From contig CAMZDX010000002.1 of NCBI GenBank assembly GCA_947305505.1, forward strand, positions 1 through 49,338: a DNA stretch of 49,338 bases, given 5' to 3'. The notes beneath the pieces are model-generated. The model worked only from the letters and a program-made list of their open reading frames with translations, ran no database searches and was not told the origin of the DNA. Source of the DNA: an uncultured bacterium (lineage in GTDB: Bacteria; UBP6; UBA1177). Of the stretch, positions 11,087 through 49,338 are shown in pieces. The first letter of the stretch is position 1. Every line of letters starts with the position of its first letter. Made by a program: the position numbers and the translations under genes.

Positions 11087-11106
11087 AAAAACCTCCACAC
11101 CACTAT

Positions 11107-20615: not shown

Positions 20616-20735
20616 ATTTTCAGGCGCTTTTTTGACAAATTTTTCAGAAACGTCTGATAGATGATGTTTTTTATTGGACAAAACACGCTGTTTTTCTATG
20701 CTTTTGCGACTAAAACGGATTGGAAGAGGTGTAAA

Positions 20736-23700
20736 ATGGCTGGAAAAAAGAATAAAAATGCTATGATGATAGTAGGGGCGACCCCGGGTGTTGTTCTTGG
20801 TCTTGTGGCATTTATAATCTCACTGACGGATACACAAGGTTTTATAGTTGCTTTTATAATTGGATTTATTGTGTTTGCTGTACTTGCACCGTTGGGAGCC
20901 TTTTTAGCCTTGTTTATAATACCATTATTAGTGTTTGTGGGCCATGTTCTTCATATTCATTCTTTGGAGCAACTTCAACCTGATGATGATATCCCTGAAA
21001 AAAAGGAAGAGTTCTTTGATTCTATAGAACGCATGTTAAGTCCGATATATACAAGTAAAATAGGTAAAATTGACAGAGCCATTATTGCAATCAAAAAATC
21101 CCGTGATGGTAAGCAGCGCAGAGAGGAATATCTGGATCGGATATGCTTGGATAGAGCAAAAAAATTTGCCGAATTTTACAAATATTCATCAAAACAGGTT
21201 CCTGCTGAAAACTCTGAATATGATAAGGCTTTAAAAAACTGGTTTATTTTTCAAAATTATGATCTTGCAAACGAATTTTTTCAAAATTCCATAGAAAAAG
21301 AGGAAAGCTGTCGTAAACTTGTGATATGTGACTATGTAAATTTCATATCTCAAACGGAAGGAGAAGAACAAGCCGTCAGAAAATTGGAAGAATATATAAA
21401 ATTATATGGGCAAAAGACCGAATTCTTTGAAAAAGCTGTAACTTTATACTCTCAAACAAATAATTTAGAGAAATTACAAGCAAGTCTGAATCGTTTGATA
21501 AACGACAAATCGGATCCAAACAGAGAACAAAATCTTGGAAGATGGCTTTTAAGACGGGCTGACTGTGAATACAGACTCGGTTATTTTGAAAAATCAATTG
21601 AGACTGCCAAAAAAGCTTACGATGCTAAGTGTTGGAAAGTCGGATATGCGAAACAGATCGTTGATTCATACATAGCCATTGGAAAATATGATGAAGCCAA
21701 AAAAAGCATAGATAAGAAATTTTTATTTGATAAAATATATTCCATATTAACAGATAGAATCAGAATCGCTGAAAAAAACAGCTATAATGCGGAAAACAGA
21801 TCTGTTTTTTATTCAGACGATGAGTTTGTAGAGAGCGTTATGGCTCAGCACCGGAATATTATTATCAAAACCATGACTCCCGTGGATGAATATACGCTCA
21901 AGTTCATTCTGAAAAAGATAGAGACAAATCAAAAAGATCTAGATAAAATTTGTGAAAGAATGCTTACTGCAGCCTATATAACAAAACATCTTTACGGTAA
22001 AACCGAGAAATATTATGAGTATATTTCCAAAGGTTTGTTCTACTGTTCACAAAAATATAAAAGTTCAAGTTATTGTTTAAGTGCCATCAAAGCCTCCACT
22101 ATGATCAAAGACGATCAAATAGAGGAACAGGCGCTGCGGAGTTATTTTTTAAATGTGCCTAAATATGCGTTGAGGAAATTAGAAGCTTATGTAATGGATA
22201 ACAATGCACCGCACGGCGTTTACAGTGAATCTCAGATAATTCAAATAATTAAGTACAGCCGTATATGCAGAAAATATTATGAAAGCAAAAAGATAAGTTG
22301 TGAGAATATAGACAAAAGATTTGACGATGCAGAGAGAAAATTTAAAGATTGGCTTGACGCAGTCAGAAAAAATGCCGATTTTAAGGAAGATTTAAAAAAT
22401 GCAGCTGATGAAGTGAAAAACTCTGTTCTAACATTCGATTCTGATAAAGAATTTATGGATTTATATATCGCAAAAATCTCTAAAATGGATGAGTTTTATA
22501 AATATGATGATTTCGACAACCGCAACCACATCGTATCTCAGGTTTTAAATGAATTGAAAAGATTGAAATCTAATGCGAAAGATTTCAATATGACAATATT
22601 TACTGAAAATTATCTTGCAAAAATCCTTTCTGCAACGATAGACAATTTAGAGAAAATCACTGAAAGGACCCGGAATGATTTTGCAACAAAAATCATAATA
22701 GATGTGCCTGAAAACAAACTTAGCCTGGATGAAAACAACGACGTAATATTCTCAGTAAATATCAGTAATACTGCCAACAGAGCACCTGCCCAAGAAATGA
22801 AACTGCTTATTGAAGATTTGTCCGGAAAAGAAATTTTTAAAAAAGATTTTTCAGAAAAAAATCTGACGGCAGGCGCTTCAATATCGGAACTTATAAAATT
22901 CAATATTAAAGACATTATTAAAGATAAAGCGGCTGTTGGTGTAAGAATAAAAGTTTCCTACAAAGGCGGTTTCGTTGAAATGTTGAAACAACTGACGATT
23001 GATTCGGATGATTTTGAGGAGATTAGAGACCCCTATATTGCAGGAAGTGTTGTCGAAAAAGACAAGATGTTCTTTGGAAGAGATGAATTGATTGGAAGAT
23101 TGGCAAGATCGCTGAAAAACGACACGACACGCTGTGTTGTTATTTACGGGCAGAAGCGTTCAGGCAAATCATCGATATTCTATCATCTCAAACGAAAACT
23201 TGAAGACAAGTTTATTATTCTTGATTTTACTGCCGGTTCAGGCATTACAAGTGAACAAAATTTTTATACCCAGGTCAGAAATATATTGTCAGAATATCTG
23301 GAAGACAACGATTTCGACAGCAGAATTATTGAAGAATTTAAGCATTTTGATATTTCAGAGTACTTGGATTTCGAACAATTTCTACGTAAAGTCAATCGAG
23401 AGATCTGCAAACCTGCTAATAAAGAGCTTTTGCTTATGATTGACGAGTTTACTAAAATATATGATTACATTAAAAACGACCATGTTTTCACTGAAAATTT
23501 TATGGATAAGTGGAAAGCCATGTCTGAACGGAATCTTTTTAAGTCTGCATTGATCGGTCAGGACAATATGCCTGAATTTATAAGGGCTTATCCAAATCAG
23601 TTCCAGGTTACAGAACTGATACGTGTTTCCTATCTTGAAAAAAGATATGCCATTGATCTGATAACCAAGCCGATACTTTTGAGTGGCGGCAAAAACAGAT

Positions 23701-24101
23701 ATTTGGAGGGCGCAGAAGAAAAGATCGCTGACTGGTTCAATGGCCAGCCGTTTTTTATCCAAAAATACTGTAAAAAACTGGTTAAGTATTTAGACCTGGA
23801 ACATGAAAGTTATATAACTTTAGCCGTTGCAGAAAATGTTAAAAACGAACTGCTTTCAGAATTTATGGACTCTGATTTCGATAATTTAGTTTATCAAGAA
23901 GAAAGTGAAGATTTTTGGAATGTACTTAAAAAGATAGCTTCTTCCGATGTCGAGGATGTTCCGCTTGATCTTTCGACTTTAAATGATGCGGAAAAATATG
24001 CTTTGGCCAAGTTAACAGACAGGGATGTTATTACTAAAAAGCAGGACAGATACCAAATCAAGATACCTTTTTTTAGAGAATGGATAAGAGAATATAAATA
24101 A
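20736..24101 (+). CDS. Membrane-anchored TPR / Ig-like / P-loop NTPase protein (gene A of three-gene operon)
   Basis: Start moved to MAGKKNK (AGAGGTG RBS). Two to three N-terminal TM helices, then a helical-repeat region. An Ig/CARDB-like segment (DVIFSVNISNTANRAP...VGVRIKVSYKGG). Walker A GQKRSGKSS and Walker B LLLMIDEF. Confidence 0.75.
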   Translation: MAGKKNKNAMMIVGATPGVVLGLVAFIISLTDTQGFIVAFIIGFIVFAVLAPLGAFLALFIIPLLVFVGHVLHIHSLEQLQPDDDIPEKKEEFFDSIERMLSPIYTSKIGKIDRAIIAIKKSRDGKQRREEYLDRICLDRAKKFAEFYKYSSKQVPAENSEYDKALKNWFIFQNYDLANEFFQNSIEKEESCRKLVICDYVNFISQTEGEEQAVRKLEEYIKLYGQKTEFFEKAVTLYSQTNNLEKLQASLNRLINDKSDPNREQNLGRWLLRRADCEYRLGYFEKSIETAKKAYDAKCWKVGYAKQIVDSYIAIGKYDEAKKSIDKKFLFDKIYSILTDRIRIAEKNSYNAENRSVFYSDDEFVESVMAQHRNIIIKTMTPVDEYTLKFILKKIETNQKDLDKICERMLTAAYITKHLYGKTEKYYEYISKGLFYCSQKYKSSSYCLSAIKASTMIKDDQIEEQALRSYFLNVPKYALRKLEAYVMDNNAPHGVYSESQIIQIIKYSRICRKYYESKKISCENIDKRFDDAERKFKDWLDAVRKNADFKEDLKNAADEVKNSVLTFDSDKEFMDLYIAKISKMDEFYKYDDFDNRNHIVSQVLNELKRLKSNAKDFNMTIFTENYLAKILSATIDNLEKITERTRNDFATKIIIDVPENKLSLDENNDVIFSVNISNTANRAPAQEMKLLIEDLSGKEIFKKDFSEKNLTAGASISELIKFNIKDIIKDKAAVGVRIKVSYKGGFVEMLKQLTIDSDDFEEIRDPYIAGSVVEKDKMFFGRDELIGRLARSLKNDTTRCVVIYGQKRSGKSSIFYHLKRKLEDKFIILDFTAGSGITSEQNFYTQVRNILSEYLEDNDFDSRIIEEFKHFDISEYLDFEQFLRKVNREICKPANKELLLMIDEFTKIYDYIKNDHVFTENFMDKWKAMSERNLFKSALIGQDNMPEFIRAYPNQFQVTELIRVSYLEKRYAIDLITKPILLSGGKNRYLEGAEEKIADWFNGQPFFIQKYCKKLVKYLDLEHESYITLAVAENVKNELLSEFMDSDFDNLVYQEESEDFWNVLKKIASSDVEDVPLDLSTLNDAEKYALAKLTDRDVITKKQDRYQIKIPFFREWIREYK

Positions 24102-24112
24102 CGGAGAAAAAC

Positions 24113-25786
24113 ATGAAAAACAGGTTCGCAAATTACGGCAATACAATGAAAGGAGATTCCTATGTTCACAGGAACAAACTGGAAAAACAGTTGCTTGATA
24201 GAACGGTAAATTATGACGATTATGGTTCAGTGAACGTGGTCGGTTTACAGAGAATGGGAAAATCTTCTTTGGTTTATAATGCTTTAGAGGCAAAAGCTGA
24301 TGAATTTTACGAAAAGAATGTTGTTATTGCGAAAATATCGGCTAATGAAATACCGACTAATGAAATACCGACTACTGAGCCTAAGCCTAATCCTGCTGAC
24401 AAATTTTTTAAAGATATGGTTCAAGAAGTTTTTGAAGTTATGAAAGAACACAACGATGTTGATGAAATTCTGCAGAAACGTTATGAAGAATTTAAAAATG
24501 ACGACATTGTTAAAGAAGGCAGTTTTTCTTTGAGAAAGTTCTTTAAAAGGATAAAAAAATCAGATAAACGCGTTGTCATGATTATTGATGAGTTTGATTA
24601 TTCTGCAAAAATTTTCTCCGATTTTCCTGAGGGTTTTAATATTTTGAGACAGTTGGCTTATGAACCTGAAACCCATGTTGCTTTTATTTTTGTTTCAAGA
24701 AGGCGGGCAGAGTATTTGGAACGTAAATGTGAAGGTATATCGCCTTTTCACAATATTCTTGATTACGTATATGTGAAAGGATTTTCCGATGAGGAGTTGG
24801 AAGAATATTTCAAATGCTGCGAAAAATCAGGTGTCACTCTTGACGATAAAGAACGAGAAACTCTCAAATCCATTACCGGTGGTCAGCCCTATTGGTCTGA
24901 CATTATGCTTAAAGCTTATAAAGAAGAAAAAGAGAACAATGAAAATACAGATCTTGAAACTGTTTTTCATAAAAACATTGATAAATTTCACGGCAAATAT
25001 GGAGGATTCCAGCACACACTTGATTTGTTGGAAGAACAGGGGCTTCTGAACAAGCTTTATCAGATAGTATTCGGACCGATGGAACCTGACTGCACCAGAA
25101 GCGATATCCAGACTTTATATAATTACGGAATCATTGTTGATAAAGATAAATCAACTGTTATCTCAGACAAATTTTATGACTATCTGAAATCGAAAGAGCG
25201 TGAAGTTGATTTCTATCCTCTCTGGCACGAGACCGAGACGGGGTTAAGAAAAATACTCAAGAATAAACTGAAAATAAAAGAAGAGTACAAGCCTGATTGG
25301 GAAAGACATCTTATAGAAAGCTATCTTCTTAATGACCCAAAAGAACTAATGAAACTGCTCGAGATACATTTTTTTAAAAATCACATGGAAAACGATTACA
25401 TTTTACAATCACAAGATTCTAAGAGACCGTATTCCAAGAAAGATTATTATCTTTCGTACGATTTGGATGAGGCGATAAAGCAGAAAAACAGAATGCTGAA
25501 TAATAAAATTTGTTATGACAGCAACAAAGACATCACAATTGTTGAAGCCTTGTATACCAAAGGTCTATTTCTGCTCTATGATTTTGAGTATTCTAAACTT
25601 CAATTGGATAAAATATTCGGAGATAAGGATAAATTCGTTGAAAAGTCCATCCATCTAAGCAAGGCAAGAAATCCCTATCAGCATAACAACGAAGAATTGC
25701 TTAACGATGATTACAAAAAGAAGACAAAAGAATACTGCGAAGCTCTTTACAACAGTATAAGAGCATTTTTAGAAAACCAGAAATAG
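24113..25786 (+). CDS. P-loop NTPase fused to a Swt1-like HEPN domain (gene B)
   Basis: Walker A GLQRMGKSS and Walker B VVMIIDEFD. C-terminal HEPN motif ARNPYQH (R at 25667..25669, H at 25682..25684), preceded by WHETETGLRKILKNKL. GGAG RBS 11 nt after the gene A stop. Confidence 0.75.
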   Translation: MKNRFANYGNTMKGDSYVHRNKLEKQLLDRTVNYDDYGSVNVVGLQRMGKSSLVYNALEAKADEFYEKNVVIAKISANEIPTNEIPTTEPKPNPADKFFKDMVQEVFEVMKEHNDVDEILQKRYEEFKNDDIVKEGSFSLRKFFKRIKKSDKRVVMIIDEFDYSAKIFSDFPEGFNILRQLAYEPETHVAFIFVSRRRAEYLERKCEGISPFHNILDYVYVKGFSDEELEEYFKCCEKSGVTLDDKERETLKSITGGQPYWSDIMLKAYKEEKENNENTDLETVFHKNIDKFHGKYGGFQHTLDLLEEQGLLNKLYQIVFGPMEPDCTRSDIQTLYNYGIIVDKDKSTVISDKFYDYLKSKEREVDFYPLWHETETGLRKILKNKLKIKEEYKPDWERHLIESYLLNDPKELMKLLEIHFFKNHMENDYILQSQDSKRPYSKKDYYLSYDLDEAIKQKNRMLNNKICYDSNKDITIVEALYTKGLFLLYDFEYSKLQLDKIFGDKDKFVEKSIHLSKARNPYQHNNEELLNDDYKKKTKEYCEALYNSIRAFLENQK

Positions 25787-25798
25787 TGAGGTGAAATC

Positions 25799-28537
25799 AT
25801 GACGGAAAAAAACGAAAACGAACTTCTGCTTATAAAAGCGGCAGTTTATGCAGGTTTTACAATTTTAGTTTTGCAAGATGAATCTAAAAGATTAAAGAAA
25901 TTCGGAAGTTTCAATGGATATTTGAACCTATGCGGACAATTCGGAATTTATTTCAACCATATTAATAAATTGCAGAATGTGCAGCAAAATATTGATGATT
26001 TTAAGACACTTGTTTCCATATTAGATAGTTGCATAGCAAAAAAAGAAATAAATTCTGAGAGATATCAAGACTTTTTTGCGAATGCAAATAACTTTTTTCA
26101 GGAATTAAAGCCTTACGCCGAAGCTTATTATGAAGTTAAAACAAAAAATTTAAAATTGAACAAATTAGGTTTTTACTGCACAACCGGTAATCAAGCAGTT
26201 CCCAAACCTGCAGTTGTTAAAACACCTCAAGAAAATGCAATCACAAGCACCCAAGAACATACCAAAGAAAAAACAAATCCGATCGTTCCTGAGAAACATT
26301 CGGAAAACAGAGACTTATCGTCAAAAGTCAAGACGGAAGTTCCCAAGAACTCAAGTGGAAATTCGGTAAAAAAAATGAAACCGATTGACTTGGATAAGAA
26401 ACTTAAACCTGTTAAAAAGATAGCAAATATAAAATTCAACGATTTTACTGATTTTTCCGCTGATTCCGCAGAATTGAACATATACATTGATGAGGCATGG
26501 CCTTGGCCTGGTAAAGATTATAACACTTTTGTTCCTCAGAATCCTGATGATAAAAAGACAGGCGTTATTGCCGGAATAGTTTGGCTCGGAAGCGAAACAG
26601 ATCCCGAAATCCTGCCTAAAATAGGGACTCATTTGCGGGAAGAAATAAAACCATATAGTGATACAGGCAAACCTATTCCGGAACAAATTGAAAAAATTTT
26701 AATGCCACCTATCCAAAACCTGCTGAACTGTAAAAAAGCTATGCCTTTTATTTTTCCGTTAAATATTGAATCAGAAATAGATTGGCAAAATGACTACTTC
26801 CCTATTTTTGAAGCTGCGATTAAAATCCTTCTCGGCTGGGTTCTTCCTCAAAACGGTAAAAAATGCAATGTCTGCATATATCCTGAACATATAGGCAAAT
26901 TCGTTGATGGAAGAAGTAAGTCGGAATATTTCAGAGGAGTTCTTAGTCAGGCCATGAAAAATACCGGGCGTTTTTCCCGATTTAATATTAAAAAAGTCGA
27001 ATGGCAGGACAAAGAATTCGGATATATTCCTTACGGAGATCTGCTCGGCTATATGACATTGCCGATATACAATAGTCTTGTTTTTAAAAAAATGGCTCGA
27101 TGTGAAGAGCTTGCAGGTTATCTGCCGATTTCCATCGGACTGTTCGAACTGCTTTCAAGACTTGATATCATAGAGGAAACCAAAAATGTTGATGATATCT
27201 ACAATCTTATCGACAGCATTTACGGCACAAAAATTTACAATTTTATTATGTCGGATCTGAAAAAACGCTTGGAAAACAATGTCGAATTGAAAACGAAGAT
27301 CCTAGAGTCAATAGAAGCTAAATACTTGGCTAAAAACCGAGACTTGAGGAAGCTCCGCTGGTATTTCAAGGAAATCATGCCCTTTATAGAGTCTCTTGAA
27401 GAAACCGCAGACACAGTAACAAAACTTATGTTTACATCGGTAAGGCTTCAGGATGCGAACCACGAGGGAAATCCCGCTAAAATAGAAAAATATCTCGCGG
27501 ATTATGATGAAAAATGGGCAAAAGCGATTCAGTTGAGAGAATTTGAGATTGCAGCCGACTGTGAACTTCATCTTGCAGTCCACTACAACGATATGTTCCA
27601 GTTTGACAAAGCTTTTGAAACATTGAAAAGAAACGAAAAATATTTCGACTATTTCAAACTTCCGACTGTCGCCAAATTTTACAGCAGTTTGGGGCAGAAC
27701 AAGTCTATAAATAAGAATTTTGGCGAGGCGAAACGCTGGTTCGACAAGGCTCTGGAAGAGTTCAACAAATCGGAAGACCGCAACAAAGCCCTGGAAATCG
27801 AGCAGACTTCGGTTTACCGCCTTTTCAACGCATTGGAAGGCAACGATCCTGAATATCCAAAAATGTTCACCGGATTTTTCGGTACTTCACCTGAAATTGC
27901 CGCCAAATTCGCTAATGAAAATTCTGTAGCCGACCAGTACAAGCACCATCTTCTTGTCCGTTCTCTCTTCTCACGCAATGATCTCGGCGAATTCAAAACA
28001 GCCTATCTTGCAGAAAAGAAAAACTGGAATTTCCTCCCGCAGCATCCGTGGCAACTCATAGAATTTTACAGAGCGATGCTGGAAAACGACTCTGAAAAAT
28101 CTTACGTTCACATGAAAAATGCTTTGGCAATCTGTGAAAATGAAGAGCACGGCGGAGTAATTTATCTGATCGGAGCAGTGATCGCGGCAGCAGGAGCAAC
28201 AAAATTCACCGGAGACAAAAAAGAAGATCTTCAGCAAAAAGCTCTCGAATTTGTTGAAAAAGCAGAAAATATGCGCGTAGCCGGGAAAAAAACAGCAATG
28301 CTTAGCGAAAAAATAAAGGAAAATATTTATCTTATCGGAACAGTAATCGCGACAGCAGGAGCAACAAAATTCACCGGAGCAAAAAAAGAATTCCTTCAGA
28401 AAAAAGCAACCGAATTTGCGGAAAAAGCAGAAAGTATGCGTGTTGCGGGAAGTGCTGCGGCAATGCTTAGCGAAAAAATAAAGGAAAATTGCGGAATTGA
28501 AAATATTCTGGAGATTTTACCGTTTAATTACAGATAG
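25799..28537 (+). CDS. Large protein with a DUF3800-like central region and C-terminal TPR-like repeats (gene C)
   Basis: GAGGTG RBS 12 nt after the gene B stop. LNIYIDEAW...GVIAGIVW...IPYGDLLGYM weakly resembles the DUF3800 pattern. The C-terminal half is helical-repeat and ends in a 55-aa tandem duplication. Confidence 0.7.
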   Translation: MTEKNENELLLIKAAVYAGFTILVLQDESKRLKKFGSFNGYLNLCGQFGIYFNHINKLQNVQQNIDDFKTLVSILDSCIAKKEINSERYQDFFANANNFFQELKPYAEAYYEVKTKNLKLNKLGFYCTTGNQAVPKPAVVKTPQENAITSTQEHTKEKTNPIVPEKHSENRDLSSKVKTEVPKNSSGNSVKKMKPIDLDKKLKPVKKIANIKFNDFTDFSADSAELNIYIDEAWPWPGKDYNTFVPQNPDDKKTGVIAGIVWLGSETDPEILPKIGTHLREEIKPYSDTGKPIPEQIEKILMPPIQNLLNCKKAMPFIFPLNIESEIDWQNDYFPIFEAAIKILLGWVLPQNGKKCNVCIYPEHIGKFVDGRSKSEYFRGVLSQAMKNTGRFSRFNIKKVEWQDKEFGYIPYGDLLGYMTLPIYNSLVFKKMARCEELAGYLPISIGLFELLSRLDIIEETKNVDDIYNLIDSIYGTKIYNFIMSDLKKRLENNVELKTKILESIEAKYLAKNRDLRKLRWYFKEIMPFIESLEETADTVTKLMFTSVRLQDANHEGNPAKIEKYLADYDEKWAKAIQLREFEIAADCELHLAVHYNDMFQFDKAFETLKRNEKYFDYFKLPTVAKFYSSLGQNKSINKNFGEAKRWFDKALEEFNKSEDRNKALEIEQTSVYRLFNALEGNDPEYPKMFTGFFGTSPEIAAKFANENSVADQYKHHLLVRSLFSRNDLGEFKTAYLAEKKNWNFLPQHPWQLIEFYRAMLENDSEKSYVHMKNALAICENEEHGGVIYLIGAVIAAAGATKFTGDKKEDLQQKALEFVEKAENMRVAGKKTAMLSEKIKENIYLIGTVIATAGATKFTGAKKEFLQKKATEFAEKAESMRVAGSAAAMLSEKIKENCGIENILEILPFNYR
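28160..28489 (+). repeat. 165-bp in-frame tandem duplication (2 units) inside gene C
   Basis: The units 28160..28324 and 28325..28489 encode IYLIGAVIAAAGATKFTGDKKE...MLSEKIKEN and IYLIGTVIATAGATKFTGAKKE...MLSEKIKEN. Confidence 0.9.
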
Positions 28538-28580: not shown

Positions 28581-29834
28581 TCATAACTCCAACTTATTCA
28601 AAAGGGTTTCTACAGCTTTTTTCCCTTCTTCATAGACTTTCGGAATGTCAGCCACTGACGGAAGTTTGCCTGTTATATCTTTTGCACCTCCGTGGGCGAC
28701 ATTGTTCCTGCGATGTCCAAGATTTTCTAATTCCGGATATATTTTCGCCTTTCTTACGGCTCTATTTAAACACGTTTTTCCATGATCCTGCCACCATACA
28801 TAGTCTCCGATACTCTTTCCGCCTGCTTCACCGAACTTTTCCGCAATCGCAGTTTCGACCGTATTCTGAAGAGTGATTACGGCCTGGGTCTTGAGATCGT
28901 GTTCATACAAATAGGCTGAATAATTATAAAGCGTTCGTGACAATGAGCGCTGATCTTCCAGTTTTATCACCTCTTGCAAAGGAACTTTGATTTTTTCGAT
29001 CCATACCGGCGAGCCTTCAGGAACACATTCTAATGCAGATTGAATCTTTCTGATTACATCCGGCAGCTGAAGGGCAAAATTAGCCTGAACTATATCAGAC
29101 ATGAATTCTACTGCACCAGCCCCCTGAGGCCATTCAGGTTTTATCAACCTGGCCAAAGTAAAACCGTCCAATTTTTTGATAAAAACCTGTAATGCTGCCG
29201 AAATCTGCGAATAACGCCAGTATTCGCTCAAATTTCTTGCATACGCCGGTTTATCCTTGCTGGTAAACTCGCCATATACAAGCTCAATTTTTCTTTCGGC
29301 ATCATCTGAAAAATGGTATTGCATTGCCTGATAAAAAAGCATCGGCATCGATCTGAATCCGTGGGTCATATCGAAAAGGACATCGTTGTTTTCCTTGATA
29401 ATAGGATAAATGGAACTGTAGCATTCAAAAAGTTCCCGAACATGATCCTGATCAACCAGCGGAGTGTGCACTTTGATAGTCACCGGAATGCCGAAACGCC
29501 TTTCGAGATAGGTTTCCAGCTCTGTTCTCAACGATTCCGTTATACCTTTTTTAATTCCGTCTTTTTCTGTAGAGGCCTCCTTCAGTTCTTCCCATAGTTC
29601 TGCATCTTTTTCCGTAAGCTCCTCATCTTCAGCCTTCACCAGAGCATCCCATGACGAAGTTTCAGTTCCGATAACAATAAGTTGGTCAATATTTCTGTAT
29701 TTTCCCTTCAGCAGAGCTTCCATAAAGAGTCTTGTTTTAAAATGCTGCGTTTCGCTCAAAAAGTAATCAGTTTCGACATATCCTTCTTTCTTATACATGC
29801 CCGTTCCGACAGATGTGATCAATGTGTAAGCCAT
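28581..29834 (-). CDS. csx1: Csx1/Csm6-family CARF-HEPN protein (DxTHG type)
   Basis: N-terminal LITSVGTG...LIVIGTETS, DxTHG motif FDMTHGFR, and C-terminal HEPN motif HRRNNVAHGG. GGGAG RBS. Confidence 0.8.
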   Translation of the reverse strand: MAYTLITSVGTGMYKKEGYVETDYFLSETQHFKTRLFMEALLKGKYRNIDQLIVIGTETSSWDALVKAEDEELTEKDAELWEELKEASTEKDGIKKGITESLRTELETYLERRFGIPVTIKVHTPLVDQDHVRELFECYSSIYPIIKENNDVLFDMTHGFRSMPMLFYQAMQYHFSDDAERKIELVYGEFTSKDKPAYARNLSEYWRYSQISAALQVFIKKLDGFTLARLIKPEWPQGAGAVEFMSDIVQANFALQLPDVIRKIQSALECVPEGSPVWIEKIKVPLQEVIKLEDQRSLSRTLYNYSAYLYEHDLKTQAVITLQNTVETAIAEKFGEAGGKSIGDYVWWQDHGKTCLNRAVRKAKIYPELENLGHRRNNVAHGGAKDITGKLPSVADIPKVYEEGKKAVETLLNKLEL

Positions 29835-30232: not shown

Positions 30233-30476
30233 TCTCAAATTGGAGCCCGGGTTCTGCCTACATTAAACTAAGTGTTTAATAATATTTTATTTGGAGGTGA
30301 ACATTTCAACCAGAGCCCGGGTTCTGCCTACATTAAACTGTTGAATCTATAAAGGATCTTGGTGACAAAGGTTTCAACCAGAGCCCGGGTTCTGCCTACA
30401 TTAAACAAAGAACTGGTCACGTTTCGATAAAGGGATCACTGTTTCAACCAGAGCCCGGGTTCTGCCTACCTGTAAC
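30233..30476 (-). CRISPR. CRISPR array: four 36-bp repeats, three spacers of 34/32/34 bp
   Basis: Plus-strand repeat is GTTTCAACCAGAGCCCGGGTTCTGCCTACATTAAAC, at 30233 (degenerate), 30303, 30371 and 30441 (degenerate end). Strand is tentative: the minus-strand reading ends in GTTGAAAC. Confidence 0.85.
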
Positions 30477-30711
30477 TCTCTACTCTCATCGTAAAGGCAC
30501 TTTTTCTCGCCTCTTTGTCTCCGCTGCCGCCGAAAATCAGTGTTTCTTTTCTTTTGAGCTCATCCAACTTTAAATTTGAATTTGCCGCTCTCCACCAGAA
30601 ACGCATCGAAGCCTTGATCTCAGGCACGCGGATCTCACATTTTGTCTGATCCGCACCGCTTGAAAACATCGGTGTCACAACGCGGCACTTGCAAATAATC
30701 GTTTCACTCAT
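30466..30711 (-). pseudogene. cmr1: Truncated cmr1 (type III-B RAMP), N-terminal 81 codons only
   Basis: VTPMFSSGAD..IRVPEIKASMRFWWRAAN..LIFGGSGDKEARKSAFTMRVE matches the Cmr1 N-terminus. The frame ends at a TAG inside CRISPR repeat 4. Confidence 0.7.
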
Positions 30712-32058
30712 TCACTCCTCCCTTTTTATCAATTTATCGTAAAAATCCTGTCCGTCCTGATATGTTTTTTTCGGTCCGTCGTTTCCCTTCGATCCTATTC
30801 TGATACCGTTGCGCAGAAAATCGACATCCAAACCTTCCTTTACTCTGCCGTATATTTTGCCGTACAGAGGCGGGAACTCGCTGTATTGCAGAAGATTGAA
30901 TATTATGAGGCTCGCATCCTCTTTTTCGCGTCCTTTGTCATCACCGTTTATATCACGGTAGATCATCTCGACATTGTGATAGAGCCTCGCTATTGACTGG
31001 ACTGCTGTAGCCATAAGCCGGTTTCCGCTAGTAAAATTGAAGATGATTCTCGTCCCCGACGAAATGTCGCGGGAATTAAAGTATCTTTTGAGACTTGCTT
31101 CGGCTTCAAGCAGCGACGATGATGACAATTTCTGCTTTTCCGGAGTTATGCCTCTGTATTTTTCCGCGATCTCGCAAATTTCATCGGCATTCACTTCAGA
31201 AGTTTCTGAATGCCAGAGGACAATCTTCTTTGCATTTACAAGCACGATGGAGGCGATCTGCGGAGAAAGCGCGGCACCGACAAGTATGTGGAGTTCGTCT
31301 ACTTCTTCAGGAAATTCGCGGTCGACGATCGGCTTTACACCTTTTTTCGAGATAAGATTCACTGCCGTTTCGACAGTATCCACAGAAAACATGTCAAGCA
31401 TCTTTTCTTCATCAGAAAGAGAACCGATGTTTTCCTGCGGAATAACGAATTTCTTTTTTGTTTTCAGTGTCAGCTTTCTGCCGAGCCCGACTTTTTTTAT
31501 ATTACCGTTTTTACCAGCATCGCCTGTAACGATCCAATTTTTTGCCGCCTCATAGACATGCTCTCTCATTTCAGGCTCGAGAAGCCTCGCTGCAAGCGCC
31601 TCGGCAAGTCTGTACGAACCATCGGTTCCGCTCCATCCTCGTTTCCAAACGCAGTCTTTGGAATCGAAGAAAAATGTTCCGCCGTTACTGCTTCTGACAC
31701 ACAATCCCCACTCCGGATTTGCTCCGGTTTCTATAGGGAAAAACATCGCGGAATAATCATATTTGTCGAGTTCGGCGAAAGACGCTTCATTATCAGAAGA
31801 CTTGAAAGGGATCATGTCTTTGAAACGGCTCTTTATCTTCCGGATTTCTTCGTTTTCCTCATTTTTATCTATCATCATCAGCGCAAGCGATGCCAAATCA
31901 ACGAACAAACCGGCAACATCATCATTTTCAGGAAACTTTTCGAATGTTATTCCGTTAAAATCTTCTGTCTTGTACGGAAAATTGTCAAAAAACCATCCGA
32001 GCAGACGTTTTTTTGACATAATTTCAATGTGACCGGGATCGAAGATATTAACTACCAT
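30712..32058 (-). CDS. Lon-type (S16) protease domain fused to a C-terminal CARF domain (CalpL-like)
   Basis: GTDGS148YRLAEALAARLL...IVTGDAGKNGNIKKVGLGRK195LTLKTKKKFVIPQEN fits the Lon Ser-Lys pattern. LHILVGAALSPQIASIVLV...IIFNFTSGNRLMATAV is CARF-like. Confidence 0.6.
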   Translation of the reverse strand: MVVNIFDPGHIEIMSKKRLLGWFFDNFPYKTEDFNGITFEKFPENDDVAGLFVDLASLALMMIDKNEENEEIRKIKSRFKDMIPFKSSDNEASFAELDKYDYSAMFFPIETGANPEWGLCVRSSNGGTFFFDSKDCVWKRGWSGTDGSYRLAEALAARLLEPEMREHVYEAAKNWIVTGDAGKNGNIKKVGLGRKLTLKTKKKFVIPQENIGSLSDEEKMLDMFSVDTVETAVNLISKKGVKPIVDREFPEEVDELHILVGAALSPQIASIVLVNAKKIVLWHSETSEVNADEICEIAEKYRGITPEKQKLSSSSLLEAEASLKRYFNSRDISSGTRIIFNFTSGNRLMATAVQSIARLYHNVEMIYRDINGDDKGREKEDASLIIFNLLQYSEFPPLYGKIYGRVKEGLDVDFLRNGIRIGSKGNDGPKKTYQDGQDFYDKLIKREE

Positions 32059-33224
32059 GGAACATAAACCTCGAGAACGACCTGTGAAGCCGCTGTTACA
32101 GGCAGGAACAAAGCCTCAGGAATGAGATGTTCTAGATTTGCGACTCCTTTGCGGATCTCGCCGAAACCGATGTTATTCCCGTTTCTTAAATCCCTGAGTA
32201 CAAAAACCATGCCGTCAGGAACAGCCGCATCTTTATCTACGCTCCATGTCGGAAGTTCGTGCTCCTGCTCAAGTTTTTCGCAGCTGCCAGCATCGAGTCT
32301 GATTGCAGAATCAAGCGCTGCTGCGAAATGTCCGACTGCAAGATCCCCTTTTCTGACCACGATCCTGCTTACCTCTTCATCGCCTGCAGCGGATTTGCGG
32401 AAAGGAACCGATTCATATTTTTTCAACTCATCAACAGAGACCAAATGTTCATTTTGCCACTCAGCTCTCGCCATTTCAGCATCAGCCATTGCCGGAACAT
32501 AGTCGGCCTTTGCCATAAGTCTTCTTTCCTCTCTGCCGTAACGCGTCATTTTGTTTTCGGAAAAGAAGTAATCATTCACAACTGGCGCGATCTCATCTAT
32601 ATTGTCAACCGAAGCAACTTTGCGCGTGCAGTCGATCTGGGAAAAACTTAACGGATAACAGAGCCACTTATGAAGGATCCAGCCATTTTCCAGCTCCATA
32701 TCCTGACCTGCGACAGCATCGCCGGCGTAATCCGGTGTTACAACAACACATCTGAAAATCCTGCCCCACGGCATTTTGTTTCCGTTGTCAAGAAGAAGTA
32801 CCGCCTGCGGAAGGAAAGTATAAACACAATAGTTTCTGCCGTTGTCAAAGACTTTGAGTTTGCTTTTGGTATAGAAAATATCGCCTTTCTGCGGAACATA
32901 AACAGATTTTCCCGCCTTCTTTCCGATATTGAGTTTTTCAGAAGGCGCAGGAAGCGAATCCATAATTTTGCGCATTTCTTCATCCGAAAGAGAAAAACCT
33001 TTCTCGACTCCGGACGATTTGCGTTCGAGTTTTCTCAAAGCCGCTCTGCAGTTTATATCTGTTTCTATCTGGTGTACCAAATCGGAATCAAGCTTTTCCG
33101 GTTCTTTTATGAATTTTACCAAAGTATCTTCCGACGGAACACTCGGAGCTTCCGACGGATCATCCCAAAGATACATTTCCCTTGAATAATTTTCAATCAG
33201 TTGTCTCTGTTTTTCACTGAGCAT
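32052..33224 (-). CDS. CalpT-like protein: anti-sigma-like N-terminal helix plus MazF/PemK-like domain
   Basis: Start moved to MLSEKQ (GGAG RBS). LVKFIKEPEKLDSDLVHQIETDINCRAALRKL resembles zf-HC2-type anti-sigma factors. VPQKGDIFYT..RIFRCVVVTPDY..LSFSQIDCTRKV is MazF-like. Tentative. Confidence 0.4.
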   Translation of the reverse strand: MLSEKQRQLIENYSREMYLWDDPSEAPSVPSEDTLVKFIKEPEKLDSDLVHQIETDINCRAALRKLERKSSGVEKGFSLSDEEMRKIMDSLPAPSEKLNIGKKAGKSVYVPQKGDIFYTKSKLKVFDNGRNYCVYTFLPQAVLLLDNGNKMPWGRIFRCVVVTPDYAGDAVAGQDMELENGWILHKWLCYPLSFSQIDCTRKVASVDNIDEIAPVVNDYFFSENKMTRYGREERRLMAKADYVPAMADAEMARAEWQNEHLVSVDELKKYESVPFRKSAAGDEEVSRIVVRKGDLAVGHFAAALDSAIRLDAGSCEKLEQEHELPTWSVDKDAAVPDGMVFVLRDLRNGNNIGFGEIRKGVANLEHLIPEALFLPVTAASQVVLEVYVPW

Positions 33225-33283
33225 TTTAATCTCCATTATTAAAAAAAATCAGAATGCACCATTAACATAAAGCGTTTCTCCCG

Positions 33284-34207
33284 CTAATTTTCCGAATTTT
33301 TTTCAGATTTTTTCGGTTTACGCGTTTCGAACTTGTCCCGAAGGAGGTCTTTAAAGAGCTCGTCCCAGTAGTCGATTGCTGTTTCCATAACTTTTTCTTC
33401 GGTAAGAATTTCGTGGAAACGACTCTCGATCCCGACTTTTCGTCCGCTTTCGGTTGAGTCGCTCAACTTTTCCGACAACCCTTTGGATTTAATGTAAGCG
33501 ATATACTTTTCCAGCGTATATTTGCCGAAGCCGGCAAGTTTGCATTTTTCCCACGGCATAAACAGAATGAAGACTCGCGCATTTTTTCCTTCATCATTCA
33601 GCATGTTGTTGGCGACAACACTCTTCGACCAGACCAGGTTTTCAAAATCGGAAGAATTGTTTATATCTACAAATCTCGGATCGTTGAAATAAATAGGTTT
33701 TCTTTCCGTTCCTGTTCCCCTTGCATCTTTTTTCTCAATAAAATCGACGACTTTATCAAATGCGATTTCCATAACCCTTTCCTTGTCAATAAAAAAGTCA
33801 TTGTCGTCGGAAGAGGAAATCTGAATAACAGGCCCGTTTTCTCCGTCTGCCGCATCCACGCTCTGCGATTTCCTGTCGATCTGATCTTTCTTCTGCTTTT
33901 CTTTTACACAGTCTCTGACTATTATGAAATATATGTAGGCTTTAGTCTCTTTTTCGCGGACATCTTCATCTGTCAGATTTTCATGGTCTTCGATAAATTT
34001 ATTCAGGGCGCCTTTGCGTATTTTCTCCATACACAAAACAACCGCGTTCATTTCAAGTTCATCCTTCATCCACTCTGCCCCGCCGAGAAAAGATTCCCAC
34101 AACTTTCTGTTGAGTCTGATCCTTTCTGCAAAAAAATCGAAAAGATCATCCCAGACCTGTTTGGATTTGTCTCCGCCTCTGAACTTCACAAGACTGTCCC
34201 AGATCAT
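33284..34207 (-). CDS. Possible sigma-70-family (ECF/CalpS-like) factor; otherwise hypothetical
   Basis: DELEMNAVVLCMEKIRKG...KAYIYFIIVRDCVKEKQKK resembles sigma regions 2.1-2.4. No clear region 4 HTH seen. GGAGG RBS. The CDS is solid; the function is tentative. Confidence 0.35.
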   Translation of the reverse strand: MIWDSLVKFRGGDKSKQVWDDLFDFFAERIRLNRKLWESFLGGAEWMKDELEMNAVVLCMEKIRKGALNKFIEDHENLTDEDVREKETKAYIYFIIVRDCVKEKQKKDQIDRKSQSVDAADGENGPVIQISSSDDNDFFIDKERVMEIAFDKVVDFIEKKDARGTGTERKPIYFNDPRFVDINNSSDFENLVWSKSVVANNMLNDEGKNARVFILFMPWEKCKLAGFGKYTLEKYIAYIKSKGLSEKLSDSTESGRKVGIESRFHEILTEEKVMETAIDYWDELFKDLLRDKFETRKPKKSEKNSEN

Positions 34208-34217
34208 TTACCCCTCC

Positions 34218-34637
34218 TTATTTAAGTATTTTGTTCTTATTCAGTATTCTGACAAGCTCCATTTTGTCCTGGTTGCTTATCGTTCCTATCGGAGAACCGT
34301 TCTCTACAAGACACCTGTCCACTTTTCTCGGGTAAAGGTAATGGTATGTTCCGATAAGATCCTCTGTAGCAATATTGTGTGTTATTACTTTAGGAATAAA
34401 GATGCCGTTATCATCAAGGCACTTAGATGTTCCAGGAATCATAAGAACAGGATCCGGATCAAAACTTTTCACAATAACCATTCCTGGTCTGTAAGGTTTC
34501 ATCTCATTTTGCCCGAACGGGGTGTCCATCCATGGTCTTCTGGCAGTCCAGAAAATCTCCCCTAAAAAATAAGTCCGACCATTATTGCGAATATGGGTTT
34601 TACCTTTAATTGAACTATCCTTTCCATATCTGCTCAT
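34218..34637 (-). CDS. MazF/PemK-like protein without adjacent antitoxin
   Basis: GEIFWT...YRPGMVIVKS...VLMIPGTSK...IGTISNQDKMELVRIL follows the MazF pattern GD.IWV..RP.VVLS...VP.T. GAGGTG RBS. Confidence 0.55.
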   Translation of the reverse strand: MSRYGKDSSIKGKTHIRNNGRTYFLGEIFWTARRPWMDTPFGQNEMKPYRPGMVIVKSFDPDPVLMIPGTSKCLDDNGIFIPKVITHNIATEDLIGTYHYLYPRKVDRCLVENGSPIGTISNQDKMELVRILNKNKILK

Positions 34638-48494: not shown

Positions 48495-48554
48495 TAGGGA
48501 AACTAGGGAATTTAGGGAGTTTAGGGATTTTTTCCCTAGTTTCCCTAGATTCCC
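48495..48554. repeat. 9-bp repeat block A: four TAGGGANNT units followed by two inverted units (TTTCCCTAG)
   Basis: The units are tagggaaac, tagggaatt, tagggagtt, tagggattt, tttccctag and tttccctag. The block can fold as a hairpin and overlaps the stop of 48545..49114. Confidence 0.8.
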
Positions 48555-49114: not shown

Positions 49115-49232
49115 TAGCAGCCTCGTTTTTGAGAATCAAAAAATCCACGTTTTATTTAATAAGACTTTAGGAAAAATCAACTTTTTATTAACCCCCCCTT
49201 ACAGGCTCACAATTCTACTAAAACCAAATTAA

Positions 49233-49292
49233 ATTCCCTAAATTCCCTAGATTCCCTAGACACCTTAGACTCCCTAGATTCCTTAGACTCCC
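49233..49292. repeat. 9-bp repeat block B: about seven tandem NNTCCCTAG-type units
   Basis: Sequence is attccctaa attccctag attccctag acaccttag actccctag attccttag actccc. Inverted relative to the first four units of block A. Confidence 0.8.
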
Positions 49293-49338
49293 TTCTTCAA
49301 CAGCCGGGTAAAACCTGAGCGCTCATTTCCGGTTGCTG

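What the first reader, a model, noticed from the sequence alone, without database searches (positions are those of the whole stretch)
30712..34637. CalpL/CalpT/CalpS-like CRISPR signalling operon built on a Lon-CARF fusion, with an extra stand-alone MazF-like gene
Seen in sequence: four tightly packed minus-strand genes sit directly upstream of a cmr1 stump and a CRISPR array.

(i) 30712..32058. The N-terminal half carries a Lon/S16-type Ser-Lys pattern, GTDGS148YRLAEALAARLL ... IVTGDAGKNGNIKKVGLGRK195LTLKTKKKFVIPQEN. I checked both codons: 31615-31617 reads TCG and 31474-31476 reads AAG. The C-terminal half looks like a CARF Rossmann domain (LHILVGAALSPQIASIVLV..KKIVLWHSETS ... IIFNFTSGNRLMATAV).

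(ii) 32052..33224. It has an anti-sigma-like N-terminal helix (LVKFIKEPEKLDSDLVHQIETDINCRAALRKL), then a MazF/PemK-like signature.

(iii) 33284..34207. Its N-terminus resembles sigma-70 region 2.

(iv) 34218..34637. It is MazF/PemK-like, with no antitoxin next to it.

Established knowledge: the characterised CalpL-CalpT-CalpS system uses a Lon-SAVED protease. cA4 activates it to cleave a partner protein and release an ECF sigma factor.

Inference: this locus looks like a variant of that logic, with three differences. The sensor appears to be CARF rather than SAVED. The partner proteins are much larger. A second MazF-like protein is present. I do not know of an experimentally characterised Lon-CARF version. 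All domain calls are motif readings, not search results.
Basis: partly seen in the sequence, partly recalled or inferred. Interest (0 to 1): 0.85.

Follow-up and report, generated by a model that had tools for sequence, protein, structure and literature searches.

The report
CRISPR-linked Lon protease with CARF sensor
This is a four-gene CRISPR accessory operon built around a protease that is probably switched on by the CRISPR alarm molecule; the protease type had been predicted from sequence but never studied, its partner proteins look new, and in this genome the enzyme that makes the alarm signal has been deleted from beside it.

Summary
Four tightly packed minus-strand genes sit directly upstream of an 81-aa cmr1 stump. 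A CRISPR repeat cuts that stump off, and a 4-repeat array and csx1 follow.

The 448-aa protein is a genuine Lon-CARF fusion. The C-terminal half matches solved CARF domains of Csm6, Can2, Card1 and Cam1 (Foldseek probability 1.0; PADLOC CARF4 E=2e-8). The N-terminal half carries invariant S148 and near-invariant K195, which align to the catalytic Ser and Lys of Lon protease domains.

It belongs to a large superfamily of at least 195 clusters at 50% identity. Some members match PADLOC's 'CARF_m2--CARF_LON' model. That class was predicted in 2020 and I found no experimental study of it.

In all 15 loci I inspected that carry a complete homologue (16-member close family plus one more distant relative), the module lies directly upstream of a Cas10-containing type III operon.

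The Calp analogy is only partly supported:
- The 307-aa protein shows no sigma-factor signal by Pfam or by Foldseek on a usable AlphaFold model.
- The 390-aa protein has no detectable MazF, DUF2080 or anti-sigma domain. It does have a conserved Ala-rich linker before a constant ~105-aa C-terminal domain, like the CalpT cleavage layout.
- The 139-aa protein is weakly PemK-like, through one ortholog only.

Verdict: a new variant of a known kind, here orphaned from its cyclase.

The parts
34218..34637 (-). P4: 139-aa accessory protein, possibly with a PemK/MazF-like fold. It is optional: four of the related locus types lack it.
   Evidence: The ORF is. Orthologs occupy the same position in L001, L006, L010, L012, L015 and L017. 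The L017 ortholog hits Pfam PemK_toxin at E=1.2e-3 (19.5 bits, cutoff 23.1, model positions 18-101 of 109). The window protein itself has no PemK hit and no PDB sequence hit.
33284..34207 (-). P3: 307-aa two-domain, almost all-helical protein with a disordered acidic linker (aa 109-140). It is always present in the module. No known fold or family matches it.
   Evidence: Homologues are. The AlphaFold model has pLDDT 75.5, with the C-terminal domain around 90. Foldseek against the PDB gave only 4 hits, all with E>3. There are no Pfam hits in 9 members and no PDB sequence hits.
32052..33224 (-). P2: 390-aa protein whose stop overlaps the P1 start. It is the candidate substrate or adaptor. It has a conserved N-terminal segment, a middle domain with a 'KGDIFYT...VVTPD' motif, an Ala-rich linker (aa ~277-281) and a constant 104-106-aa C-terminal domain.
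   Evidence: The family of 16 proteins is always adjacent to P1. There are no Pfam hits in 15 members and no PDB sequence hits.
30712..32058 (-). P1: 448-aa Lon-CARF protein, made of an N-terminal helical domain, a Lon-type protease domain and a CARF domain.
31339..31761 (-). P1 aa ~100-240: the Lon-like protease domain.
   Evidence: The M. jannaschii Lon protease domain (1xhk) is the top PDB hit for two profiles, at E=0.028 and E=0.011, with the Ser and Lys aligned. hhalign against LonA P-domains gives E=4e-4. The order of secondary-structure elements fits Lon.
31615..31617 (-). S148 codon (TCG), the candidate nucleophile.
   Evidence: It is invariant in 16/16 and 97/97 family members. It aligns to the catalytic Ser of MjLon and EcLon.
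31474..31476 (-). K195 codon (AAG), the candidate general base.
   Evidence: It is invariant in 16/16 members and conserved in at least 90% of 97. It aligns to the catalytic Lys of Lon.
30829..31305 (-). P1 aa ~252-410: a single CARF domain, carrying the motifs ELHILVG and FNFTSGNRLM.
   Evidence: Foldseek probability is 1.0 to the CARF domains of Csm6, Can2, Card1, Cdn1, Cam1 and Cad1. PADLOC CARF4 gives E=2e-8. The motifs are invariant.
30466..30711 (-). Truncated cmr1. Only the first ~79 codons remain, fused to a CRISPR repeat.
30234..30476 (-). Residual CRISPR array. Four ~35-nt repeats (GTTTAATGTAGGCAGAACCCGGGCTCTGGTTGAAA) lie at 30442-30476, 30372-30406, 30304-30338 and 30234-30268 (degenerate). 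There are three spacers of 33-35 nt.
   Evidence: The same repeat core follows cas6 in L010.
28581..29834 (-). csx1 (CARF-HEPN), a second cOA-responsive effector in the same locus.
   Evidence: PADLOC CARF2--CARF_HEPN gives E=5.7e-133 over the full length, and the DxTHG motif is found by TIGR02549.

Best explanation
The four genes are an ancillary signalling module of a type III CRISPR-Cas system. Its core is P1, a Lon-type Ser-Lys protease fused to a CARF sensor.

Proposed mechanism:
1. When a Cas10 cyclase detects target RNA, it makes cyclic oligoadenylate, most likely cA4.
2. The messenger binds the CARF domain of P1, presumably a homodimer, and switches on the Lon domain (S148/K195).
3. 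P1 then cuts its translationally coupled partner P2, most likely at the conserved Ala-rich linker just before P2's constant ~105-aa C-terminal domain.
4. The cut frees the rest of P2 together with P3. P3 is a two-domain helical protein that is always present and is the likely output component. Where P4 is present, this PemK-like protein is freed as well.

Shown: the domain identity of P1, the conservation of the dyad, the conservation of the module, and its position next to Cas10 operons in relatives.

Inferred: cOA activation, P2 as the substrate, the cleavage site, and the nature of the output.

In this window the cyclase is gone. A deletion joins cmr1 codon ~80 to a CRISPR repeat. The module can therefore work only if another type III system elsewhere in the genome supplies the signal.
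For: CARF domain:
- Foldseek probability 1.0 to the solved CARF domains of Csm6, Can2, Card1, Cdn1, Cam1 and Cad1.
- PADLOC CARF4 E=2e-8.
- The motifs are invariant.

Lon domain:
- S148, T178, G179 and K195 are invariant in 16 homologues.
- S148 and G179 are invariant, and K195 is at least 90% conserved, in 97 distant relatives.
- A Lon protease domain (1xhk) is the top PDB hit for two independent profiles, with the catalytic residues aligned.
- hhalign against LonA gives E=4e-4 with S148 on S679 and K195 on K722.
- S148 sits at the N-terminus of a helix and K195 after a beta-hairpin, as in Lon.

Family:
- 195 clusters match at E<=1e-3, mostly 420-490 aa with the same layout.
- 72 of 97 hit the commonest CARF4 model, and 10 of 97 hit PADLOC 'CARF_m2--CARF_LON'.
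- One relative is fused to Cas10.

Context:
- The order P4?-P3-P2-P1 lies directly upstream of cas10 operons in L001-L012 and L014-L017.
- Those Cas10 proteins carry GGDD or GGED.

Substrate analogy:
- CalpL needs Ala or Gly at P1 and cuts CalpT at VA|ST or LAA|A, just before a ~10-kDa C-terminal domain (bioRxiv 10.1101/2021.12.06.471393 and 10.1101/2024.05.08.593097).
- P2 has AA(G/D) about 7 residues before its 104-106-aa C-terminal domain.

cA4:
- The best CARF matches are cA4 binders.
- Csx1 is co-located.
- Effectors that use different cOA signals rarely co-occur (PMC11229360).
Against: - Pfam Lon_C does not hit P1, and the PDB E-values (0.01-0.03) are weak on their own.
- I could not run a fold search on the Lon domain alone or superpose the dyad.
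- P1 itself does not hit the CARF_LON model.
- The one relative I inspected matched that model only over its CARF part.
- P2, P3 and P4 have no significant match to CalpT, CalpS, MazF or any PDB chain, so their roles rest on synteny and analogy.
- No cas10 or cmr2-6 is present in the window.
Confidence: 0.6

Rival explanations
1. This is a full Calp-type pathway. P2 is a CalpT-like anti-sigma factor with a MazF-like core, P3 is a highly divergent ECF-like sigma factor, and cleavage releases P3 to reprogramme transcription.
For: - P1 has the same domain order as CalpL, and its dyad sits at nearly the same positions (S152/K193 and S154/K195 in the two CalpL proteins).
- P2 has an Ala-rich linker followed by a ~105-aa C-terminal domain.
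- The motifs GDIF..KP.AVLLL..VVTP are colinear with MazF motifs.
- In a distant Lon-CARF locus (L025), the first gene of the module hits Sigma70_r4_2 (E=0.0032) and Sigma70_r4 (E=0.015) at its C-terminus.
Against: - No Sigma70_r2, r4 or ECF hit appears in any of 9 P3 homologues.
- The P3 model, whose C-terminal domain has pLDDT ~90, matches no PDB structure, although the PDB holds many sigma-factor structures.
- The C-terminal domain of P3 is about 160 aa, and the candidate helix-turn-helix has an 8-residue loop.
- P2 has no PemK, DUF2080 or zf-HC2 hit in 15 members.
- hhalign of P2 against MazF is not significant.
- P3 shows no profile similarity to the L025 sigma-like protein.
Confidence: 0.22
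2. P1 is a promiscuous abortive-infection protease. Once cOA activates it, it degrades many host proteins, and the neighbouring genes are not specific substrates.
For: The 2022 review speculated this for predicted CARF-Lon fusions (PMC9704534). Canonical Lon proteases have broad specificity.
Against: - P2 and P3 are co-conserved with P1 in every close locus, with overlapping start and stop codons.
- Distant loci keep 2-3 genes of similar size directly upstream of the P1 homologue.
- The only characterised CRISPR Lon protease, CalpL, is substrate-specific.
Confidence: 0.1
3. In this genome the module is a stranded remnant with no current function, because the deletion that removed cas10-cmr6 and the adaptation genes cut off its signal source.
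For: - cmr1 is truncated at codon ~80 by a CRISPR repeat.
- tblastn with Cas10, Cmr3-6, Cas1, Cas2 and Cas6 from relatives finds nothing in the 49 kb window.
- Only 3 spacers are left.
Against: - All four module genes and csx1 are intact and full-length compared with their homologues. This suggests either a recent deletion or a signal supplied in trans by another type III locus outside the window.
- This rival concerns activity in this genome, not what the module is.
Confidence: 0.3
4. The Lon-like domain is a non-catalytic scaffold, as in RadA/Sms, and P1 acts only as a cOA-binding regulator or ring nuclease.
For: Lon-like domains without activity exist; RadA was noted in the CalpL paper. Pfam Lon_C does not recognise P1.
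Against: The Ser and Lys are invariant or nearly invariant across about 100 diverged relatives, in the canonical motif context (G-x-S...TG...K...P..N).
Confidence: 0.05

Closest known systems
CalpL-CalpT-CalpS (the type III CRISPR Lon-SAVED protease system of Sulfurihydrogenibium and Ca. Cloacimonas)
   Same: - It has the same domain order: N-terminal helical domain, Lon Ser-Lys protease domain, C-terminal cyclic-nucleotide sensor.
- The dyad lies at nearly the same residue numbers.
- It is encoded next to type III effector genes, together with small partner genes.
- The adjacent partner has an Ala-containing linker in front of a ~10-12 kDa C-terminal domain.
   Different: - The sensor is one CARF domain, so P1 is expected to act as a homodimer. 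CalpL has a two-lobed SAVED domain, is a monomer and forms filaments.
- There is no detectable sequence similarity to any PDB chain other than archaeal Lon.
- The partners are larger (390 and 307 aa, against 271 aa for SsCalpT; CalpS is about 190 aa by my recollection, not checked here) and have no detectable MazF, DUF2080 or ECF-sigma domains.
- The gene order is reversed.
- An extra PemK-like gene is often present.
'CARF_m2 -- CARF_LON', the predicted CARF-Lon fusions (PADLOC-DB model PDLC01981; discussed as 'CARF-Lon effectors' in PMC9704534)
   Same: The architecture is the same, with Lon N-terminal and CARF C-terminal. Ten of 97 superfamily relatives hit this model. The family is associated with type III systems. 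It is uncharacterised.
   Different: The window protein does not reach the model even at E<=1. It belongs to a diverged branch found in rumen and gut MAGs of the UBP6 type. I know of no description of its partner genes.
Other CRISPR-associated protease switches: SAVED-CHAT/PCaspase and the type III-E Craspase (Csx29-Csx30-Csx31-CASP-sigma)
   Same: The logic is the same: RNA sensing by a type III system leads to site-specific proteolysis of a dedicated partner and release of an effector or regulator.
   Different: The protease folds differ (caspase-like) and so do the activation routes. No sequence relationship was detected here.
CARF4-type effectors Can2/Card1, and Csm6
   Same: The CARF domain of P1 is closest to these in sequence and in fold. 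This suggests recognition of cA4, or possibly cA6.
   Different: Their effector domains are nucleases (PD-D/ExK, HEPN), not a protease.

Membership tests
Lon (MEROPS S16) protease domain | A Ser-Lys catalytic dyad in the canonical motif context (G-x-S at a helix N-terminus ... TG ... hairpin ... K ... P-x-x-N) | tested here: met
   S148, T178, G179, K195 and P207 are invariant in 16 sequences. S148 and G179 are invariant, and K195 is at least 90% conserved, in 97 sequences.
Lon (MEROPS S16) protease domain | Statistically significant profile similarity to Lon_C | tested here: inconclusive
   Pfam Lon_C gives no hit at E<=1. Lon 1xhk is the top hit in the PDB profile searches, but only at E=0.028 and 0.011. 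Pairwise hhalign gives E=4e-4 with probability 35%.
Lon (MEROPS S16) protease domain | The Lon P-domain fold, with the dyad superposed | not testable with these tools
   CARF hits dominated the full-length Foldseek search, and the viral library was uninformative. The order of secondary-structure elements agrees with Lon.
CARF domain | A Rossmann-like fold matching solved CARF domains | tested here: met
   Foldseek gives E from 2e-5 to 6e-4 and probability 1.0 to the CARF domains of Csm6, Can2, Cdn1, Card1 and Cam1.
CARF domain | An HMM match and the conserved ligand-site motifs | tested here: met
   PADLOC CARF4 gives E=2e-8 and CARF1 gives E=7.6e-7. Pfam CARF_Card1 gives E=0.011, below its cutoff, but 35 of 97 relatives hit it, the best at 1.4e-9. 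The motifs LHxLVG and N-x-T-S-G-N-R are invariant.
CARF domain | Binds cyclic oligoadenylate | not testable with these tools
   This needs biochemistry.
SAVED domain (as in CalpL) | Two fused CARF-like lobes of about 250-300 aa | tested here: not met
   The sensor region is a single CARF of about 160 aa. No SAVED structure is among the top 50 Foldseek hits, and no SAVED model is hit in PADLOC.
PADLOC/Makarova 'CARF_m2--CARF_LON' | A match to model PDLC01981 | tested here: not met
   P1 gives no hit at E<=1. Ten of 97 superfamily relatives hit the model. In the one relative examined, the hit covered only the CARF part.
PADLOC/Makarova 'CARF_m2--CARF_LON' | Lon + CARF architecture with type III association | tested here: met
   
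CalpT (substrate and anti-sigma factor) | A MazF-like domain | tested here: inconclusive
   There is no PemK_toxin hit in 15 P2 members. hhalign against MazF aligns only the P-x-GDI motif, at E=0.066.
CalpT (substrate and anti-sigma factor) | A DUF2080 C-terminal domain | tested here: not met
   No Pfam hit was found.
CalpT (substrate and anti-sigma factor) | A small-residue (Ala) P1 site in a linker before a ~10 kDa C-terminal domain | tested here: inconclusive
   A conserved AA(G/D) motif lies about 7 residues before a 104-106-aa C-terminal domain. This is an analogy; cleavage was not tested.
CalpS / ECF sigma factor | Sigma70 region 2 and region 4 domains | tested here: not met
   There is no Sigma70 family hit in 9 P3 homologues at E<=10 and no PDB sequence hit. 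Foldseek on the model found no sigma factor; all 4 hits had E>3. Caveat: the N-terminal domain of the model has pLDDT of only 55-85.
MazF/PemK toxin (P4) | A match to PemK_toxin | tested here: inconclusive
   The window protein gives no hit. The L017 ortholog gives E=1.2e-3 at 19.5 bits, below the cutoff of 23.1, but covers model positions 18-101 of 109. hhalign is colinear but weak, at E=0.02. There is no PDB hit.
Complete type III-B CRISPR-Cas locus | Cas10/Cmr2 plus the Cmr3-6 effector genes | tested here: not met
   tblastn finds none of them in the window. Only 79 codons of cmr1 remain.

The most novel reading that the evidence does not exclude
The CARF-Lon module is a CRISPR-triggered proteolytic switch whose released component, P3, is neither a sigma factor nor a known toxin. 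P3 would instead be a new protein fold with a new kind of downstream response. That would make this a third, mechanistically distinct protease branch of type III signalling, alongside CalpL and the CHAT/Craspase proteases.
Probability: 0.3. Interest if true: 0.75.

Novelty: new variant of a known kind. Interest (0 to 1): 0.58.

Why it matters
Only one cOA-activated Lon protease has been characterised, CalpL, and it uses a SAVED sensor that works by forming filaments. A true CARF-Lon should be a dimer, so the cyclic nucleotide must switch on the protease in a different way.

The family is large: at least 195 clusters at 50% identity, spread over Verrucomicrobiota, Kiritimatiellota (Pontiellaceae), Spirochaetales, Caldithrix and uncultured rumen and gut bacteria of the UBP6 type. 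It was predicted bioinformatically in 2020 and I found no experimental work on it in the searchable literature.

This work defines the conserved partner set. P2 and P3 are always present and P4 is optional. It gives a testable cleavage site in P2. It also shows that the obvious assumption, that the partner is a sigma factor as in Calp, is not borne out for P3. If the output is new, it widens the range of CRISPR-triggered responses and offers a new cOA-controlled protease with a specific substrate for tool building.

Tried and rejected
- Foldseek of the full-length P1 model against the viral library, hoping for hits to the Lon domain, gave nothing useful.
- PDB profile searches with the P2, P3 and P4 families found nothing meaningful.
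- Pfam scans of every member of the P2, P3 and P4 families gave no consistent hits.
- hhalign of P4 against the middle domain of P2 was not significant.
- hhalign between the window's partner families and the equally sized upstream genes of distant loci (L018, L019, L021, L023, L025) showed no significant homology. I therefore claim only positional and size conservation there.
- The search for related loci with the broad alignment failed.
- The CARF classification paper (Makarova 2020) could not be retrieved.
- I considered and rejected SAVED as the sensor, zf-HC2 as the anti-sigma motif in P2, and the idea that the CRISPR array might be a chance repeat.

Full report
**Observation**

- P1: 30712-32058, 448 aa.
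- P2: 32052-33224, 390 aa. A GGAG lies 8 nt upstream of this ATG, and the public gene call is also 390 aa.
- P3: 33284-34207, 307 aa.
- P4: 34218-34637, 139 aa.

The codons for S148 (TCG) and K195 (AAG) are as stated. P2 and P1 overlap by 7 nt, and the P1 stop abuts the next ATG.

That next ORF, 30466-30711, is the first ~79 codons of cmr1 (PADLOC Cmr1 E=2.8e-18; TIGR01894 E=9e-11). It is 88.6% identical to the start of a 352-aa Cmr1 in related locus L004. It runs directly into a CRISPR repeat.

The array has three exact copies of a 28-nt repeat core and one degenerate terminal copy, spaced 68-70 nt start to start, with none expected by chance. The same repeat core follows cas6 in related locus L010. 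An intact csx1 follows at 28581-29834 (CARF2-HEPN, E=5.7e-133).

**P1 is a Lon-CARF fusion**

An AlphaFold model built on 16 homologues has mean pLDDT 82.

*CARF half.* Foldseek against the PDB returns only CARF proteins at the top: T. thermophilus Csm6, Can2, Cdn1, Card1, Cam1 and Cad1, all with probability 1.0 and aligned to the C-terminal part. PADLOC CARF4 and CARF1 models hit residues ~256-375 (E=2e-8 to 1e-5). The sensor is one CARF domain of about 160 aa, and no SAVED model or structure is hit.

*Lon half.* Pfam finds nothing in the N-terminal half, so I tested it in other ways:
- In the 16-member family, S148, T178, G179, K195 and P207 are invariant.
- A profile of residues 84-245 searched against 1.84 billion representative proteins found 195 clusters at E<=1e-3. 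Most are 420-490 aa with the match at the same position.
- In 97 of these, S148 and G179 are invariant and K195 is at least 90% conserved.
- Against PDB sequences, the family profile and a broader 49-sequence profile both have the M. jannaschii Lon protease domain (1xhk) as top hit, at E=0.028 and 0.011. S148 aligns to the catalytic Ser (DGDS) and K195 to the catalytic Lys. A. fulgidus Lon also appears.
- hhalign of the broad profile against E. coli and B. subtilis LonA protease domains gave E=4e-4 over 86 columns, with S148 on S679 and K195 on K722.
- The predicted secondary structure puts S148 at the N-terminus of a helix, then the WIVTG strand, a hairpin, K195 at the start of a helix, and the VIPxxN strand. 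That is the Lon order.

I could not run a fold search on the Lon domain alone. The fold and the geometry of the dyad therefore remain inferred.

**Place among known families**

Of the 97 relatives, 72 hit the commonest CARF4 model and 10 hit PADLOC model PDLC01981, named 'CARF_m2--CARF_LON'. P1 itself does not reach that model. In the one relative I inspected, the hit covered the CARF part only.

A 2022 review has a section on 'CARF-Lon effectors'. It describes them as bioinformatically predicted and only speculates about their function (PMC9704534). The 'Lon-CARF' of the older literature was CalpL, later recognised as Lon-SAVED.

My searches for CARF-Lon or CARF plus Lon protease, covering papers dated up to 2026, found only Lon-SAVED work. 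CalpL has the same N-helical/Lon/sensor order, with its dyad at S152/K193 or S154/K195.

**The module and its context**

In every close locus the order is (P4)-P3-P2-P1. A cas10-containing type III operon follows directly. It is either Cmr1-6 or another type III gene set whose subtype I did not determine. Cas1 and Cas2 follow in most loci where the fetched stretch reaches that far. Those Cas10 proteins carry GGDD or GGED. P4 is missing in four locus types (L004, L008, L009, L011).

More distant Lon-CARF genes come from Pontiellaceae, Verrucomicrobiota and Caldithrix, and one sits in a Csm-type locus. They still have two or three unannotated genes of similar sizes immediately upstream. I could not show that those genes are homologous to P2-P4. 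One relative is a single polypeptide of Lon-CARF fused to Cas10.

In the window itself, tblastn with Cas10, Cmr3-6, Cas1, Cas2 and Cas6 from relatives finds nothing. A deletion evidently joined cmr1 to a repeat of the downstream array. That left the ancillary genes without a local cyclase.

**The partners**

*P2.* It has 16 homologues, always adjacent to P1. No member has a Pfam hit and there is no PDB sequence hit. The 'MazF signature' reduces to motifs that are colinear with MazF (KGDIFYT, KP-AVLLL, VVTPD), but hhalign is not significant.

One feature does stand out. A conserved AA(G/D) motif lies about 7 residues before an invariant Ser, followed by a C-terminal domain of constant length, 104-106 aa. 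CalpL needs Ala or Gly at P1, and it cuts CalpT (VA|ST or LAA|A) just before a ~9-11-kDa C-terminal domain that stays bound to the protease. I therefore propose P2 as the substrate and this linker as the cleavage site. This is an inference.

*P3.* I obtained database ids for locus-derived homologues and built a 12-sequence alignment. The resulting model has pLDDT 75.5. The C-terminal domain (aa 141-300) is around 90, the N-terminal domain is 55-85, and the acidic linker (aa 109-140) is disordered. The model is almost all helical. Foldseek against the PDB found nothing: four hits, all with E>3. No Sigma70 family hits any of 9 homologues. The sigma-factor reading is therefore not supported.

The only sigma-like signal anywhere is in the distant locus L025. 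There the first gene of the module hits Sigma70_r4_2 (E=0.0032) and Sigma70_r4 (E=0.015), both sub-threshold, and it shows no detectable similarity to P3.

*P4.* The window protein has no PemK hit. Its L017 ortholog hits PemK_toxin at E=1.2e-3, below the cutoff, but over almost the whole model. The GEIFW...RP-xV...PGT motifs align colinearly with MazF. This is suggestive, not established.

**Mechanism**

The best-supported reading is a cOA-gated, substrate-specific protease switch. Cas10 makes cOA. The messenger is probably cA4, because the CARF domain is closest to cA4 binders, Csx1 is co-located, and effectors with different signals rarely co-occur (PMC11229360). The CARF dimer of P1 binds the messenger, and the Lon domain cuts P2 at the Ala-rich linker. 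This releases P3, and P4 where it is present.

What the released proteins do is unknown. A transcriptional output like that of Calp is possible but unsupported for this branch.

The rivals are a promiscuous abortive-infection protease, an inactive scaffold, and a dead remnant in this genome. They are listed with their evidence.

**Novelty and verdict**

The protease class is catalogued but uncharacterised. This branch, its partner set, the proposed cleavage site, and the lack of sigma or MazF identity in the partners go beyond what I could find described. It is a new variant of a known kind. A type III CRISPR specialist would find it interesting, less so because this particular copy has lost its effector complex.

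Noticed in passing
window 30234-30711: cmr1 is cut after about 79 codons by a CRISPR repeat. No cas10, cmr3-6, cas1, cas2 or cas6 is present anywhere in the 49 kb window. A deletion between cmr1 and the downstream array has orphaned the ancillary genes (the Lon-CARF module and csx1) and left only 3 spacers.
   Followed up: yes
window 20661-28537 (+ strand): Three large genes (1146, 557 and 912 aa) lie in a low-GC stretch (34-38%, against about 44% elsewhere). The first two carry STAND/AAA_35-type NTPase domains. The stretch sits right next to the CRISPR remnant and may be a separate, horizontally acquired defence island.
   Followed up: partly
window 28160-28489: A 165-nt tandem duplication (2 copies, 84% identical) lies inside the 3' end of the 912-aa ORF. 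It duplicates a ~55-aa segment (IYLIGTVIA..AGATKFTG..).
   Followed up: no
window 48495-48555 and 49230-49293: Short arrays of a 9-nt unit (TAGGGAATT / ATTCCCTAG, in opposite orientations) flank the 189-aa gene at 48545-49114. They could be iteron-like or regulator-binding repeats.
   Followed up: no
window 10016-11098: [quoted passage not shown]
   Followed up: no
protein P0112 (1011 aa, from the representative search): A single polypeptide combines the Lon-like domain (aa ~141-245), a CARF domain (aa ~274-393) and a full Cas10 (aa ~480-960). The sensor-protease and the cyclase are fused.
   Followed up: partly
L025:570-1451: In a distant Lon-CARF locus of Csm type, the first gene of the upstream trio (293 aa) ends in a sigma region-4-like helix-turn-helix (Sigma70_r4_2 E=0.0032, sub-threshold). 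This hints that some branches of the family do pair with a sigma-like factor.
   Followed up: partly
L018:6265-7176: In the Pontiellaceae locus, the gene directly downstream of the Lon-CARF gene begins with a CxxxCxxC motif (RPCNGRCNYCF), as in radical-SAM enzymes such as viperin-like proteins.
   Followed up: no
L001, L004, L006 and L011 (for example L004:18927-20702), and L021:11015-13819: Cas1 in the related loci is about 590 aa, roughly twice the usual length. In L021 a 934-aa ORF with a reverse-transcriptase-like N-terminus lies about 1.9 kb downstream of the Lon-CARF gene. These may be RT-Cas1 fusions.
   Followed up: no
L001:11325-12689, and the equivalents in L008, L010 and L012: In several relatives an extra 414-525-aa gene with the Pfam 'MJ1674_2nd' domain sits between the Lon-CARF gene and cas10/cmr1. 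It is probably another CARF-family effector and is absent from the window.
   Followed up: no
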